Below are positions 1-46,440 of a DNA stretch of 46,440 nt, piece after piece. The stretch is from Patescibacteria group bacterium (GTDB lineage: Bacteria > Patescibacteriota > Microgenomatia > UBA1400 > PJMF01), in the NCBI GenBank assembly GCA_018816385.1, contig JAHIVK010000041.1, positions 1 through 46,440 on the forward strand, in the 5' to 3' direction. Positions within the stretch are counted from its first letter, which is position 1. The number at the start of each line of letters is the position of its first letter. The position numbers and the translations under genes are program-made. The notes under the pieces are model-generated. The model did no database searches. It saw only the letters and a list, made by a program, of their open reading frames with translations, and was not told the DNA's origin.

Positions 1-105
1 GCTACTTATGGCATCTTTTATGCATTTTCTTTGCTGGTTCTTCCTCAACCAGCATTGGCTACTATCGTCATCAGAATCAACGAAAATGCTATAAAATCTA
101 TCCAT
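1..105 (-). CDS. Partial small ORF opened by the leader cassette (MDRFYSIFVDSDDDSSQCWLRKNQQRKCIKDAISS..., runs off the window); belongs to a repeat-borne short-ORF family
   Basis: ATG at 103-105 (minus) is directly preceded by the cassette and the frame is open to the window edge. A related 41-codon ORF at 7575-7700 (minus) shares DDDSSQxWLRK and KDAxS. Confidence 0.3.
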   Translation of the reverse strand, partial: MDRFYSIFVDSDDDSSQCWLRKNQQRKCIKDAISS

Positions 106-138
106 AATTAACTCATTTCTTATTTCGCGACAAGTCTA
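1..138. repeat. Left arm of a perfect 138-bp inverted repeat; the partner is 46301-46438 at the opposite window edge
   Basis: The reverse complement of 46301-46438 reads identically to 1-138 (compared base by base). Identity stops at 139 / 46300. The arm contains the conserved leader cassette at 103-138 in minus orientation. Confidence 0.9.
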
Positions 139-140
139 GT

Positions 141-214
141 GGATTCCCCCCGCCAGGGCGGGGGGAATGACAAACAGGAATTGGATTCACCCTGCCAAGG
201 GCGGGGGGAATGAC
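141..214. repeat. Two GC-rich palindromic hairpin (REP-like) units
   Basis: 141-171 is GGATTCCCCCCGCC-AG-GGCGGGGGGAATGAC (12-bp stem, 2-nt loop). 183-214 is a second, degenerate unit. The same family recurs at six other intergenic loci. Confidence 0.85.
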
Positions 215-243: not shown

Positions 244-1479
244 CTATTGATGAGGGCCATCAAAAGCATGTCTTTCGGTCATTAATGTTGACAGTAAAAC
301 TGCCAAACTGCCAACCAAAAAGACACTTGTCCAGCCTTTGCCAATCAGAAAGATAACACCCACCACACTCCACATGAGGGTGCCAGCTATAGCTGCAATT
401 ATTTCACTATAAACAAAGTAAGAAAAAGCCTGACTGCCCTTGCCCCGACGCATCATTTGCATTTCAAAAAATAACCAATGGAAATTACCAACTAAAGTGT
501 TGGTGGCATCAATAAAGGCAATCGACCAAGGACTAATAATTTGGGTTCTGAACAACCATAAAACAGACATAATTCCGCCAGAAGTTTTAAAGAGTTTGTG
601 TGAACGAATTTTGTCAATCATGCTGGCCAAGAAAAAAGTAACTAAGAAAGCCATAAATAAGGCTATTGAATACAGATAACCCACTTTATCGACTGACCCC
701 AGGATAAAGAAGACATAGAGTGGCCAAATATAAATAATTGAATCATTGATGTATCTCCCACCCAAAGCCATGGCCAACCGACTATAGCGAGGCTCTCTCA
801 TCCAACTCAAAAATTCTCGCCAACTGATTTGATCTTTCTCAATAGTTGATTCGGTCATCATCGACAAAATCAAACTGACCATAGTGCCGGCAATCCCAAA
901 CAAGAAGAGGACAGACAAACCCAACTGAACCGAGATAAAACCAGCCACTGCTGGAGATAACATAGCTACAATTTGCAACATTAACTGCAAAACACCCAAA
1001 TCAGCTCCCATTTTTGACTTGATGGCATATCGCGAAAGCAGGGTGTAGTAGGTTGGCCAAAAAAGACCTGAGTGAATGGCTTCGAGAAATATGACCAGCC
1101 AAATTAAGTCAGGATATTGACCAGTATAGTAGATGACAACTAGAGAAATAATTCGCATCAAATAACTGGCAGTCATAGTGCGTTGATAACCAAATTTGAC
1201 AAAAAATCGATTGGTGGGAATGAACGTGATTAAGTTGATGATTTTCATCACTAAATAAAATATGACAACCATCAGCATGCCTTTCTGAATATCTGTTAGA
1301 GGTAAATCAGCTAAGACGCTGTTTTTGCCCAGTTCAAATAAATAAATTGGGAAAAAGAAAAAACTCAGTTTGTTAACTAAATCTCGAAAAACCCGATTTA
1401 AGTAAAGTAGTTTTAAATTGCGATTTGAATCGACCCGAATGTTGGACAAATGCAGTAAGTGATCAAGTATTTTGGGCAT
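244..1479 (-). CDS. Polytopic membrane protein, MFS-type transporter-like
   Basis: 411 aa, almost entirely hydrophobic helices (about 10-12 predicted by eye). The ATG is supplied by a leader cassette identical to the one at 103-138. The stop TAG lies in a partial cassette (AGTCTA, 241-246). Confidence 0.5.
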   Translation of the reverse strand: MPKILDHLLHLSNIRVDSNRNLKLLYLNRVFRDLVNKLSFFFFPIYLFELGKNSVLADLPLTDIQKGMLMVVIFYLVMKIINLITFIPTNRFFVKFGYQRTMTASYLMRIISLVVIYYTGQYPDLIWLVIFLEAIHSGLFWPTYYTLLSRYAIKSKMGADLGVLQLMLQIVAMLSPAVAGFISVQLGLSVLFLFGIAGTMVSLILSMMTESTIEKDQISWREFLSWMREPRYSRLAMALGGRYINDSIIYIWPLYVFFILGSVDKVGYLYSIALFMAFLVTFFLASMIDKIRSHKLFKTSGGIMSVLWLFRTQIISPWSIAFIDATNTLVGNFHWLFFEMQMMRRGKGSQAFSYFVYSEIIAAIAGTLMWSVVGVIFLIGKGWTSVFLVGSLAVLLSTLMTERHAFDGPHQ

Positions 1480-1512
1480 AATTAACTCATTTCTTATTTC
1501 GCGACAAGTCTA
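1477..1512 (-). promoter_or_regulatory. Conserved 36-nt leader cassette (TAGACTTGTCGCGAAATAAGAAATGAGTTAATT-ATG) fused to the start codon of 244-1479
   Basis: 36/36 identical to 103-138 and to 46301-46336. A partial tandem copy, TTATTTCGCAGAAAATCTA, follows at 1513-1531. Confidence 0.6.
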
Positions 1513-3117: not shown

Positions 3118-3186
3118 TAGACTTTCTGCGAAATAAAAAACGAGTTAATTATGTTAAGATTTTACTTCATTTCGCAGAAAGTCTAT
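3118..3186. repeat. Orphan leader cassette (3118-3153, plus) paired with an inverted partial copy (3170-3186), between convergent genes
   Basis: TAGACTTTCTGCGAAAT (3118-3134) is the exact reverse complement of ATTTCGCAGAAAGTCTA (3170-3186), giving a 17-bp perfect inverted repeat with a 35-nt spacer. The cassette ATG (3151) opens only an 18-codon ORF. Confidence 0.8.
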
Positions 3187-7569: not shown

Positions 7570-7734
7570 TAGACTTATAGCGAAATAACTAAATAAATAC
7601 TTAATGCATCTTTTGACCATTTTCCCCTTTCTATCTTCCTCAGCCAGCTCTGGCTACTATCGTCATCTAAAAATGGTGAAAATGTATTAAAATCTATCAT
7701 TAATTTCTTTATTTCTTATTTCACTATAAGTCTA
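7570..7734. repeat. Composite repeat element: cassette (plus) + core + cassette (minus); a diverged internal copy of the window-edge repeat
   Basis: TAGACTTATAGCGAAATAA (7570-7588) and TTATTTCACTATAAGTCTA (7716-7734) form a 19-bp inverted repeat with 1 mismatch. The core aligns by eye to 1-102 over most of its length. It carries a 41-codon ORF at 7575-7700 (minus). Confidence 0.75.
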
Positions 7735-13143: not shown

Positions 13144-13305
13144 AACCTCAATTCCAAAATAGATCTTGAGGAAATTGTATTATATTAAGACAATTTTAAC
13201 ATTTTCTGAAGACGATAGTAGCCGGAGCTACTTAAGGATGAAATAAAGTGGTAAAATTGCTCACATAGAATGAAATTAACCAAGATCTATTTTGGAATTG
13301 AGGTT
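13144..13305. repeat. 25-bp perfect inverted repeat flanking a 112-bp insert, in the divergent intergenic region at the left edge of the pilin/T4SS block
   Basis: AACCTCAATTCCAAAATAGATCTTG (13144-13168) is the exact reverse complement of 13281-13305. The insert contains a degenerate copy of the GACGATAGTAGCC core repeat. Confidence 0.85.
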
Positions 13306-17164: not shown

Positions 17165-17328
17165 AAAATAGGTATCAATGTGAGGTATATTAAACTTAAA
17201 TCAACGCTTCCCTTATTTTGCCACAGGTCTAATGCAAATTTGAACGGCGCAAGTTCTATAAAACTTAGGTATAATTAAATAGAGTGGTGATAAAATAGAC
17301 TTGTCGCGAAATAAGAAACGAGTTAATT

Positions 17329-17709
17329 ATGCCTCAGACAACCCTCCAGCTAGCTCAATTTGGCGATCAAGGTCTCATGCCACCAGTGGTTAACGATTAC
17401 ACCAGGGGTGTAGCTGAAGGTGAAACAGCTTTTTCCAGTTTGGAGTTAATTATTTCCAACGTGATTGGCCTGCTCACCACCATTGGTGCCATCATGTTCA
17501 TCCTCTACTTTATCTTGGGAGCCATTAGTTGGATCGGCTCTGGTGGCGATAAGGGCAAGCTAGAGTCTGCCCGCAATCAGATGATGCATGGAGCGCTGGG
17601 CTTGATCATTATTGTGAGCGCTTATGCCATCATTGGCTTGATTGGCCGAGTGGTAGGATTGGATATCTTGAGTCTGGCCGATCAGCTAAAAAAGTTAACA
17701 CCTAACTGA
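17329..17709 (+). CDS. T4SS pilin-like protein (paralogue 6)
   Basis: FILYFILGAISWIGSGGDKGKLESARNQMMHGALGLIIIVSAY. The ATG is supplied by a full cassette at 17296-17331. Confidence 0.7.
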   Translation: MPQTTLQLAQFGDQGLMPPVVNDYTRGVAEGETAFSSLELIISNVIGLLTTIGAIMFILYFILGAISWIGSGGDKGKLESARNQMMHGALGLIIIVSAYAIIGLIGRVVGLDILSLADQLKKLTPN

Positions 17710-17801
17710 ATTGGATCTTATAAATAAACAAGGCAAATATAGATTGGTGGCAAAATAAAAAAATAGCCGATTAGATCTGTCGAAAAATAAGAAACGAGTT
17801 C

Positions 17802-18353
17802 ATGATGAATAAATTTAAGAGCGCTTTAGTTAATTTTGATCACAATAGCCAAAGATTTTCTTTTTCAATTAGTCAAGTTAGTACGAAGGTGCCATTTCTT
17901 AAATTGTTACTCACGATCGTGGTTGGATCTGCTTTTTTACTCAACACTGCCTTTTCCAATCCTGTTCGGGCCGATATTATCAATCCGGCCGTTGGCACCT
18001 TGGGTGGCTGTCAGCCTGGTGACGGTGAGTGTGTGGAAAATCCAGTGGCCATTGACCAAGTTAAGTCCGGCGCCACTTTTCTGTTGCAGTTTGTTAAACT
18101 CTGGCGCAACACCATCAACCTGGGCGCCATCATGGTCCTGCTTTACTTTATTTGGGGAGCGGTGGAGTGGATTAGCTCTGGAGGTGACAAAAATAAGCTG
18201 GAGAGTGCTCGCAACAAGATGTTGCATGCAGTCTTGGGGCTGATTATCCTGGTGAGCTCGTTTGTGATCATTGGTTTTATTAGCGGTGGTCTGTTTGCCA
18301 AAAATTTTGATATATTAAATCTGCAGTTTTTTACCCCGGGAGAGGGCTCATAG
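17802..18353 (+). CDS. T4SS pilin-like protein (paralogue 7)
   Basis: VLLYFIWGAVEWISSGGDKNKLESARNKMLHAVLGLIILVSSF. It has a signal anchor. The cassette lies at 17772-17804. Confidence 0.7.
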   Translation: MMNKFKSALVNFDHNSQRFSFSISQVSTKVPFLKLLLTIVVGSAFLLNTAFSNPVRADIINPAVGTLGGCQPGDGECVENPVAIDQVKSGATFLLQFVKLWRNTINLGAIMVLLYFIWGAVEWISSGGDKNKLESARNKMLHAVLGLIILVSSFVIIGFISGGLFAKNFDILNLQFFTPGEGS

Positions 18354-18455
18354 AATTTGGCAGTGAAAAACAAAATATCAGACATAAAATCAAATCAGAT
18401 AAACTGATAGCTAGTTATAAAGAGACCTGTAGCGAAATTAAGAAACGAGTTAATT

Positions 18456-18968
18456 ATGCCTCAAACTTTACTGCTCGCCTCTACTCAACTGGCCGAGGCC
18501 CTGCCTTTTAACATTGGAGAAAAGGCCCAGGACATTATTCCCATGATCGGGGCCAGCAACTCCGGCGATGACTCGTACCGTTCCAACTTTTCATATCTTG
18601 TCACCAGTCTGATGAGCTTCATCATGGCCATCGCCGCTCTGGCCGTCCTGTTGTTTTTGCTGTTTGGAGCCATCGAATGGATTAGTTCCGGCGGCGATAA
18701 AAACAAACTGGAGTCCGCCCGCAACAAGATGATGCACGCGGCTTTAGGAATTATTATTCTCTCGGCTACCACCGCTATCTTTATGGTCATCCAACAGTTT
18801 GTGGGCATTAGAGTGATTAATTTTGTTGGAGGAAGCGCGCCAAATTACTCTTATGCTTGCATGGATGTACATGCTTGTGGAATCATAAATGGTAATGTGG
18901 TAGTTGATAATAACGGCACTTGTCGGGGCGGATGTGCTCATTCTAATATCTGTTGTCAATCTAATTAG
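18456..18968 (+). CDS. T4SS pilin-like protein with a C-terminal Cys-rich extension (paralogue 8)
   Basis: LLFLLFGAIEWISSGGDKNKLESARNKMMHAALGIIILSATT, then ...YACMDVHACG...GTCRGGCAHSNICCQSN. The cassette lies at 18421-18458. Confidence 0.7.
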   Translation: MPQTLLLASTQLAEALPFNIGEKAQDIIPMIGASNSGDDSYRSNFSYLVTSLMSFIMAIAALAVLLFLLFGAIEWISSGGDKNKLESARNKMMHAALGIIILSATTAIFMVIQQFVGIRVINFVGGSAPNYSYACMDVHACGIINGNVVVDNNGTCRGGCAHSNICCQSN

Positions 18969-46264: not shown

Positions 46265-46300
46265 GCTCCTTGCTAAATAATGACATCGCTGGGAGGGGAA

Positions 46301-46438
46301 TAGACTTGTCGCGAAATAAGAAATGAGTTAATTATGGATAGATTTTATAGCATTTTCGTTGATTCTGATGACGATAGTAGCCAATGCTGGTTGAGGAAGA
46401 ACCAGCAAAGAAAATGCATAAAAGATGCCATAAGTAGC
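46301..46438. repeat. Right arm of the perfect 138-bp inverted repeat (partner 1-138); begins with a full leader cassette at 46301-46336
   Basis: Exact reverse complement of 1-138. It is preceded by a partial GC-rich unit (46279-46300). Confidence 0.9.
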
Positions 46439-46440
46439 CA
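46334..46440 (+). CDS. Partial small ORF identical to the one at 1-105 (minus); runs off the window
   Basis: ATG at 46334-46336 is supplied by the cassette. The translation MDRFYSIFVDSDDDSSQCWLRKNQQRKCIKDAISS is identical to the left-edge copy. Confidence 0.3.
   Translation, partial: MDRFYSIFVDSDDDSSQCWLRKNQQRKCIKDAISS

What the first reader, a model, noticed from the sequence alone, without database searches (positions are those of the whole stretch)
1..138. The two window edges are a perfect 138-bp inverted repeat of each other
Bases 1-138 are the exact reverse complement of 46301-46438, and identity ends abruptly at 139 / 46300. Internal relatives of the same element (7570-7734, and the remnant at 13190-13260) are clearly diverged, so these two copies are either very recent or homogenised.

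If the right edge were joined to the left edge, the junction (...CCATAAGTAGC-CA-GCTACTTATGG...) would form a ~278-bp near-perfect palindrome.

Possible explanations:
- the 46-kb origin-containing segment is bracketed by inverted copies of a dispersed repeat, making it a substrate for origin-centred inversion;
- the assembly broke at, or folded back on, a long palindrome;
- these are true terminal inverted repeats of a linear replicon.

I cannot tell these apart from the sequence alone.
Basis: seen in the sequence. Interest (0 to 1): 0.6.

Follow-up and report, generated by a model that had tools for sequence, protein, structure and literature searches.

The report
Contig broke at two MITE copies
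The matching 138-base ends are cut-off copies of a 165-base miniature transposon (MITE) with about 150 loci in this tiny Patescibacteria genome. The short-read assembler stopped there, so this is an assembly boundary, not a chromosome end or a giant palindrome.

Summary
In detail: bases 1-138 are the exact reverse complement of 46301-46438.

The window is a whole contig (C77) of a 77-contig, 1.0-Mb Paceibacteria-like MAG. Its ends are truncated copies of a 165-nt MITE with 20-nt terminal inverted repeats and a 3-bp ANT target duplication. The element occupies 153 loci, 1.8% of the assembly.
- 65 of 154 contig ends stop inside it.
- The end pieces are 135-141 nt long, and identical end matches never exceed 141 nt. 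That is the signature of a k=141 de Bruijn assembly; a near-identical public contig is named k141_792002.
- Ten contigs have such "terminal inverted repeats" and eight have direct ones.

Sister assemblies (99.4-99.9% identical) finish both copies. One reads through the right copy into sequence identical to own contig C71. Another completes the left copy to 165 nt.

Both ends carry the same part of the element, so they cannot close on each other. No palindromic junction exists anywhere in the data.

The element's ends match (19/20) a 1016-bp IS5-family insertion sequence in a same-order genome. No transposase was found in this genome.

One point is unresolved. The right copy's core is variant A here but variant B in two sister assemblies and on C71. 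The perfect identity may therefore be strain-specific or a graph artefact.

The parts
1..138 (+). Left truncated MITE copy: consensus positions 28-165 of the 165-nt element, core variant A. The missing 27 nt (TAGACTTGTCGCGAAATAAGGGCAATG) lie beyond the contig end.
   Evidence: Completed to 165 nt in sister contig L123 (GCA_043826185.1).
138..140 (.). Inner half of the presumed 3-bp target-site duplication (AGT) of the left copy, taking the element proper as AGAC...GTCT.
   Evidence: Inferred from the family-wide ANT duplication (16 of 31 full copies perfect; flank logo A 90% / N / T 97%). The outer half was not seen.
46301..46440 (-). Right truncated MITE copy: consensus positions 165 down to 26, core variant A in this record. 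140 nt = k-1 for k=141.
   Evidence: A full 165-nt copy at this site in sister contig L117 continues into sequence that is 100% identical to own C71.
46299..46301 (.). Target-site duplication AAT of the right copy (inner half).
   Evidence: Sister read-through L117 shows ...GGGGAAT|AGAC...GTCT|AAT|GATGATGG, a perfect 3-bp duplication.
7570..7734 (+). Full-length, diverged internal copy of the same family (74% identity to the consensus), with co-varying terminal inverted repeats.
13182..13255 (-). Partial, decayed copy (76% complementary to 7620-7693).
   Evidence: pair I2.
1477..1512 (+). Solo 36-nt element end (consensus 130-165, 100% identical) abutting the start codon of the MFS transporter gene 244..1479(-).
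17296..17331 (-). Solo 36-nt element end (97%) abutting the start codon of a T4SS-pilin-like gene (17329..17709). Similar pieces lie at 17772-17826 and 18423-18458.
3118..3172 (-). 55-nt fragment of the element's right arm (80%) between the glycosyltransferase and ligase genes.

Best explanation
The two window edges are the ends of a MEGAHIT-type (k=141) contig. Each stops about 140 nt inside a separate copy of a 165-nt non-autonomous transposon (MITE) that is highly repeated in this Paceibacteria-like genome.

Many copies are identical over more than 141 nt, so the de Bruijn graph cannot be resolved through them. Every flanking contig runs at most k-1 bases into the element and then ends. The two copies bordering this contig happen to lie in opposite orientation, which about half of such contigs show, so the ends read as a perfect inverted repeat.

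The element is a long imperfect hairpin with 20-nt terminal inverted repeats. It duplicates 3 bp (ANT) on insertion. Inferred, not shown: it is moved in trans by an IS5-family (DDE_Tnp_4) transposase.

The contig is an internal piece of the chromosome. Beyond the right copy lies the tRNA-Ser / maf contig C71, at least in a sister strain.
For: - The window is the whole of contig C77, in a 77-contig, 999.5-kb assembly.
- The element has 153 loci (17.6 kb, 1.76% of the assembly), including 35 full internal copies at 71-99% identity.
- 65 of 154 contig ends stop inside it, with end pieces 135-141 nt long.
- All-against-all comparison of contig ends gives 100%-identical end-anchored matches that pile up at 137-141 nt, with none longer.
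- A near-identical public contig is named k141_792002 (46,443 bp).
- 18 contigs have both ends in the element: 10 inverted (including C77) and 8 direct. Contigs C10 and C38 show 141-nt terminal inverted repeats made of other repeats.
- Both C77 ends carry the same part of the element (positions 26/28-165), so a single copy cannot join them.
- There are 0 palindromic junctions and 45 canonical continuations.
- Sister contig L117 (99.4% identical) reads dnaN, then a full 165-nt copy with an AAT duplication, then 369 nt that are 100% identical to own C71:2484-2116.
- Sister contig L123 (99.9% identical) completes the left copy to 165 nt.
- MITE nature: 20-nt terminal inverted repeats and an ANT duplication; hairpin fold z-scores of -10.6 and -11.9; no Rfam match at gathering threshold.
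- A 1016-bp insertion sequence has the same ends (AGACTTGTAGCGAAATAAG, 19 of 20), a 3-bp duplication and a 298-aa DDE_Tnp_4 transposase (PF13359, E = 3e-27).
Against: - The k=141 origin of this particular record is inferred from end-length statistics and from the name of a near-identical public contig.
- The left neighbour is unknown: every assembly found breaks there.
- In this assembly the right end (core variant A) and C71's end (core variant B) disagree at 7 of 112 overlapping positions. Either they are not the two halves of one copy in this strain, or one of them is mis-threaded.
- No transposase related to the matching insertion sequence is present in this genome or in 59 of 60 relatives searched. 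The mobilising enzyme is therefore inferred only.
Confidence: 0.9

Rival explanations
1. The identity is biological. The two bordering copies were homogenised by gene conversion. Alternatively, the 46-kb dnaA segment inverts by recombination between them, so that a variant-A core now sits next to dnaN.
For: - The dnaN-side copy has core A in the window and in the ENA contig, but core B in two sister MAGs that are only 0.4-0.6% diverged. That is seven linked differences within 21 nt at one locus.
- Own C71 carries core B, which would fit a different adjacency in this strain.
- Another sample shows a different context upstream of maf, next to a MITE copy.
Against: - An inversion with crossover inside the element predicts an MFS-side copy with core B. 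All four assemblies show core A there.
- Conversion predicts core A on the C71 side of the same assembly. That is not seen.
- Multi-k assembly of mixed strains can produce the same conflict.
- With about 150 loci in both orientations, any segment is bracketed by copies, so the origin is not singled out.
Confidence: 0.12
2. The assembly folded back on, or broke at, a real palindrome of about 278 bp (a head-to-head element dimer), or the ends are chimeric fold-back artefacts.
For: Joining the ends would arithmetically give a near-perfect palindrome. The element itself is hairpin-like.
Against: - No such junction occurs in the genome or in 161 fetched loci, against 45 canonical continuations.
- The two extra right-end bases follow the canonical element.
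- Sister contigs complete both copies as ordinary 165-nt elements.
- The same kind of end occurs on 65 contig ends.
Confidence: 0.02
3. These are genuine terminal inverted repeats of a linear replicon, or the closure point of a circular 46-kb replicon.
For: Only the perfect terminal inverted repeat itself.
Against: - The contig holds chromosomal core genes: dnaA, dnaN, pth, an ATP-dependent ligase and T4SS-pilin-like genes.
- The bin is 97.5% complete at about 1 Mb.
- The ends are shared with 63 other contig ends and with internal copies.
- A sister contig reads through the right copy.
- Both ends hold the same half of the element, which rules out circular closure through one copy.
Confidence: 0.01

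Closest known systems
Repeat-induced contig breaks in de Bruijn graph assemblies (MEGAHIT, largest k = 141)
   Same: Contig ends extend at most k-1 (or k) bases into a collapsed repeat. Identical end overlaps are capped at 141 nt. Many contigs share the same terminal sequence. A sister contig bears the k141_ name.
   Different: Nothing differs. The assembler and its settings for this exact record were not seen and are inferred.
Prokaryotic MITEs derived from IS5-family insertion sequences (DDE_Tnp_4 / PIF-Harbinger-like; eukaryotic counterpart: Tourist MITEs)
   Same: 165 nt long with no transposase. 20-nt terminal inverted repeats that match 19 of 20 those of a 1016-bp IS5-family element. A 3-bp AT-rich target duplication. 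Dozens of copies. Folds as a hairpin.
   Different: The matching insertion sequence is in another genome of the same order. None was found in this genome or its family. The duplicated triplet is ANT rather than the TWA/TNA I recall for Harbinger/IS1031 (from memory). The host is a roughly 1-Mb Patescibacteria genome, for which I found no published MITE description.
Correia elements (CREE/NEMIS) of Neisseria
   Same: About 100-160 nt, with terminal inverted repeats and a TA-containing target. Highly repeated and intergenic, with ends that can lie against gene starts. (The Correia properties are from my own knowledge.)
   Different: The sequence is unrelated. The target duplication and the putative transposase family are different. 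No evidence here of promoter or RNase III functions.

Membership tests
MITE (non-autonomous DNA transposon) | Small size with no transposase gene | tested here: met
   165 nt. The only reading frame is a roughly 25-55-codon reverse-strand frame that is broken in many copies.
MITE (non-autonomous DNA transposon) | Terminal inverted repeats | tested here: met
   20-nt perfect repeats, TAGACTTGTCGCGAAATAAG / CTTATTTCGCGACAAGTCTA, which co-vary between subfamilies.
MITE (non-autonomous DNA transposon) | Target-site duplication flanking the copies | tested here: met
   A 3-bp ANT duplication is perfect in 16 of 31 full copies, against 0 of 31 for a 3-bp duplication at the other element boundaries tried. 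AAT/AAT at the dnaN site in sister contig L117.
MITE (non-autonomous DNA transposon) | Many dispersed copies forming subfamilies | tested here: met
   153 loci, 35 full internal copies at 71-99% identity, plus 65 contig ends. Also present in 6 of 40 related genomes.
MITE (non-autonomous DNA transposon) | Ends shared with an autonomous element that supplies the transposase | tested here: inconclusive
   One 1016-bp insertion sequence with 19 of 20 matching ends in a same-order genome. None in this genome or in the other 59 relatives.
IS5 family (for the matching insertion sequence L106:5727-6744) | DDE transposase of the DDE_Tnp_1 / DDE_Tnp_4 type | tested here: met
   PF13359 E = 3.1e-27 and PF01609 E = 3.2e-18, both above their cut-offs. 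NCBIfam transpos_IS5_4 scores 90 bits, below its 140-bit cut-off.
IS5 family (for the matching insertion sequence L106:5727-6744) | About 0.8-1.5 kb, short terminal inverted repeats, short AT-rich target duplication | tested here: met
   1016 bp, 19-nt repeats, AAA/AAA duplication.
Terminal inverted repeats of a linear replicon | The repeat is confined to the two physical ends of one replicon | tested here: not met
   The same sequence is on 65 contig ends and at 35 internal sites. A sister contig reads through it.
Terminal inverted repeats of a linear replicon | Molecule ends visible in reads, or telomere-maintenance genes (terminal protein, telomere resolvase) | not testable with these tools
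I did not screen for such genes.
Structured RNA family (Rfam) | Match to a curated covariance model | tested here: not met
   0 matches at gathering score over the whole window.

The most novel reading that the evidence does not exclude
MITE copies are active recombination or conversion substrates in this population. The core of the copy next to dnaN was swapped (variant B to A, seven linked changes) between strains less than 0.6% apart. The neighbourhoods of copies differ between strains. So a burst of a 165-nt hairpin element would be reshaping gene order, possibly including the origin region, in a 1-Mb reduced genome. A related reading is that the hairpin is kept by selection on single-stranded DNA: 23 of 43 pairs show double compensatory changes and G-U intermediates are almost absent.
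Probability: 0.15. Interest if true: 0.5.

Novelty: new member of a known kind. Interest (0 to 1): 0.2.

Why it matters
Mostly as a caution. In k=141 short-read MAGs, perfect "terminal inverted repeats" of up to 141 nt are a routine by-product of contigs ending in oppositely oriented repeat copies. They should not be read as telomeres, palindromes or inversion modules.

Practically, one 165-nt element accounts for 42% of the contig ends in this bin. Paired-end linking across it should therefore scaffold much of the genome, for example C77 to C71.

Biologically, a MITE burst covering about 1.8% of a roughly 1-Mb Patescibacteria genome, with no transposase in sight, is a modest addition to what is known of mobile DNA in these reduced genomes. 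The held literature has no description of MITEs in this group.

Tried and rejected
- **Read evidence.** I did not try read laying with run names seen elsewhere. Older runs are laid only as Logan contigs, and the Logan contigs found here (L120-L122) already stop about 25-30 nt into the element.
- **Rfam.** Nothing over the whole window at gathering threshold.
- **Autonomous partner in this genome.** Spacings between terminal-repeat pairs show classes of 165-168, 68 and 51 nt only, with no insertion-sequence-sized class. tblastn with the L106 transposase found nothing.
- **Relatives of that transposase.** The closest elsewhere are about 31% identical, in Nitrosopumilus and others, and no terminal inverted repeat like this element's was found at those loci.
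- **Left neighbour.** I looked up the genes next to the three variant-A partner ends. For C21-L (radA) and C35-R (DHFR), every assembly breaks at the same place. The C76-R gene is not on record.
- **Synteny beyond dnaN.** More distant relatives (59% DnaA identity) have no maf or NTP-transferase within 1.6 kb.
- **Reverse-strand small ORF** (MDRFYSIFVDSDDDSS..LRKKK). It is interrupted or shifted in many diverged copies, and its conserved block coincides with a hairpin. I do not treat it as a gene.

Full report
**Observation.** Bases 1-138 and 46301-46438 are 100% reverse-complementary over 138 nt (read directly). The window is not an arbitrary slice. It is the whole of contig C77, the longest of 77 contigs in a 999,501-bp assembly. 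The "window edges" are therefore contig ends. Gene content points to a chromosome piece of a Patescibacteria (Paceibacteria-like) genome: dnaA, dnaN, pth, an ATP-dependent ligase and T4SS-pilin paralogues. The closest DnaA relatives are Candidatus Pacebacteria/Paceibacterota MAGs at 59%. The bin is scored 97.5% complete.

**What the repeat is.** A BLAST of the ends against the whole assembly shows that the 138 nt are part of a 165-nt dispersed element. Its consensus is TAGACTTGTCGCGAAATAAGGGCAATG|GCTACTTATGG...CTTATTTCGCGACAAGTCTA, with 20-nt perfect terminal inverted repeats.
- It occupies 153 loci, 17.6 kb or 1.76% of the assembly. These include 35 full-length internal copies at 71-99% identity, 58 fragments and shorter derivatives (68-nt and 51-nt classes), and 65 pieces at contig ends.
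- Taking the element proper as AGAC...GTCT, copies are flanked by a 3-bp direct duplication, ANT. It is perfect in 16 of 31 full copies; a 3-bp duplication at the other boundaries tried fits none. The flank logo is A 90%, N, T 97%.
- The element folds into one long imperfect hairpin, with z-scores of -10.6 and -11.9.
- It matches no Rfam family.
- A 1016-bp element in a same-order Paceibacterota MAG (L106:5727-6744) has the same ends, 19 of 20, identical to the repeat variant of several copies here. It has a 3-bp duplication (AAA/AAA) and a 298-aa DDE_Tnp_4/DDE_Tnp_1 transposase.

The element is therefore an IS5-type MITE. No homologue of that transposase is in this assembly or in the other 59 relatives searched. 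Mobilisation in trans is thus inferred, not shown. Related copies occur in 6 of 40 related genomes, with a second expansion in G017.

**Why the contig ends in it.**
- 65 of 154 contig ends (42%) stop inside a copy, and the end pieces are almost all 135-141 nt long.
- Comparing all contig ends with each other, 100%-identical end-anchored matches pile up at 137-141 nt and none is longer.
- A de Bruijn assembler with k=141 leaves exactly this pattern: a flanking unitig can carry at most k-1 bases of a collapsed repeat. The right end holds 140 element bases plus one unique base, which makes one 141-mer.
- A near-identical public contig of 46,443 bp is literally named k141_792002.
- Of the 18 contigs with both ends in the element, 10 have the two copies inverted (C77 is one of them) and 8 have them direct. 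This is what random orientation predicts.
- Contigs C10 and C38 show 141-nt terminal inverted repeats made of unrelated repeats.

**What lies beyond the ends.** Assemblies of the same population (99.4-99.9% identical over 7 kb) settle most of this.
- In GCA_043825415.1, contig JBDRRW010000050.1 (L117) runs from dnaN through a complete 165-nt copy flanked by AAT/AAT. It continues for 369 nt that are 100% identical to own contig C71:2484-2116, which carries tRNA-Ser(GCT), maf and an NTP-transferase.
- In GCA_043826185.1, L123 extends the left copy by exactly the missing 27 nt (...CATTGCCCTTATTTCGCGACAAGTCTA).
- The two extra bases at the window's right end (CA) fit this canonical continuation.
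- Both C77 ends carry the same portion of the element (positions 26/28-165). They cannot be the two halves of one copy, so the contig does not circularise on itself.
- The hypothetical palindromic junction occurs nowhere in the genome or in 161 fetched loci. The canonical continuation occurs 45 times.

**An unresolved wrinkle.** The element has two abundant core variants:
- variant A: ...CCAATGCTGGTTGAGGAAGAACCAGC...
- variant B: ...CCTCAGCTACTTGAGGAAGAAGAAGC...

Variant B dominates, with 58 of the 65 ends. The left copy is variant A in all four assemblies that cover it. The right copy is variant A in the window and in the ENA contig, but variant B in both sister MAGs. Own C71, its presumed other half, is variant B and differs from the window's right end at 7 of 112 overlapping positions.

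Three explanations remain:
- The strain dominating this assembly really has a variant-A copy next to dnaN, through conversion or a different adjacency.
- Strain mixture.
- Multi-k graph threading produced an inconsistent pair of ends.

A simple inversion between the two bordering copies predicts a variant-B core on the MFS side, which no assembly shows.

**Structure conservation (side result).** I aligned 22 diverged copies. In the consensus hairpin, 95.4% of cells are paired and 23 of 43 pairs show double compensatory changes. The shuffled mean is 10.8, with 0 of 500 shuffles reaching the observed value; slid controls give 2-8. One-sided (G-U) intermediates are rare. That points to a DNA-level palindrome constraint, or arm-to-arm copying, rather than a strand-specific RNA. 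It fits the MITE reading but is more than transposase recognition of the tips requires.

**Verdict.** The linear-replicon and giant-palindrome readings are rejected. Origin-centred inversion is unsupported. The element family itself is a new member of a known kind, an IS5-type MITE, in a host group for which the searchable literature has no MITE description. Earlier notes of this scan reached the same classification for this genome and for other Patescibacteria. I re-derived the classification independently here.

Noticed in passing
window 46301-46440 versus G000 C71:2485-2621 and loci L117, L119: The copy next to dnaN has core variant A in this record and in the ENA contig. It has variant B in two sister MAGs and on own contig C71, with 7 mismatches in the 112-nt overlap. 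This is either a strain polymorphism or conversion at one MITE locus, or an assembly-threading conflict.
   Followed up: partly
window 1477-1512, 17296-17331, 17772-17826, 18423-18458: Solo 33-36-nt element ends (TAGACTTGTCGCGAAATAAGAAAyGAGTTAATT-ATG) sit exactly against the start codons of host genes: an MFS transporter and three T4SS-pilin paralogues. These end remnants may supply the 5' leader and the ATG.
   Followed up: no
alignment A1 of 22 copies (for example window 7570-7734): The full-length hairpin is kept by compensatory double substitutions (23 of 43 pairs) with very few G-U intermediates. Unpaired blocks (CTTCCTCAAGTAG, GGCTACTATCGTCATC, GAAAATG) are nearly invariant in copies that are otherwise about 70% identical.
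   Followed up: partly
reverse strand of the element (for example window 46335 onward; 7700 down to 7570): There is a short frame, M-x-RFY-x-I-F/L-V-x-SDDDSS-x-x-Y/W-LRKKK.... It is recognisable in most copies but is cut by stops or shifted in many diverged ones. It is probably a by-product of the conserved hairpin block.
   Followed up: partly
window 141-214 (also near 46279-46300): GC-rich hairpin units (GGATTCCCCCCGCCAGGGCGGGGGGAATGAC) form a second dispersed repeat family, seen on many contigs. They lie directly next to the left MITE copy.
   Followed up: no
G000 C71:2116-2484 (locus L129), beyond the right end: Next to tRNA-Ser(GCT) at 2055-2140, the motif GCGGAAGCGGTGGG(A/T), which resembles a tRNA 3' end, recurs three times within about 350 nt. 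It looks like stacked integration scars at a tRNA gene.
   Followed up: no
locus L142 (ENA ERZ27247117 k141_624911): In another sample, the identical Maf protein gene has a different upstream context: C26-like sequence, then a diverged MITE copy, then C59/C19-like sequence. This hints that the neighbourhoods of MITE copies are shuffled between strains, or are mis-assembled.
   Followed up: partly
loci L092, L095, L104, L107, L113, L116: The exact 20-nt terminal repeat also occurs in Okeania (cyanobacteria), a Woesearchaeota MAG and a Methanoperedenaceae MAG. This suggests that the parent IS5-type element crosses phyla and domains.
   Followed up: no
G000 C10 and C38, both ends: These contigs have 141-nt perfect terminal inverted repeats made of other repeats. 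This confirms that such ends are a generic feature of this assembly.
   Followed up: partly
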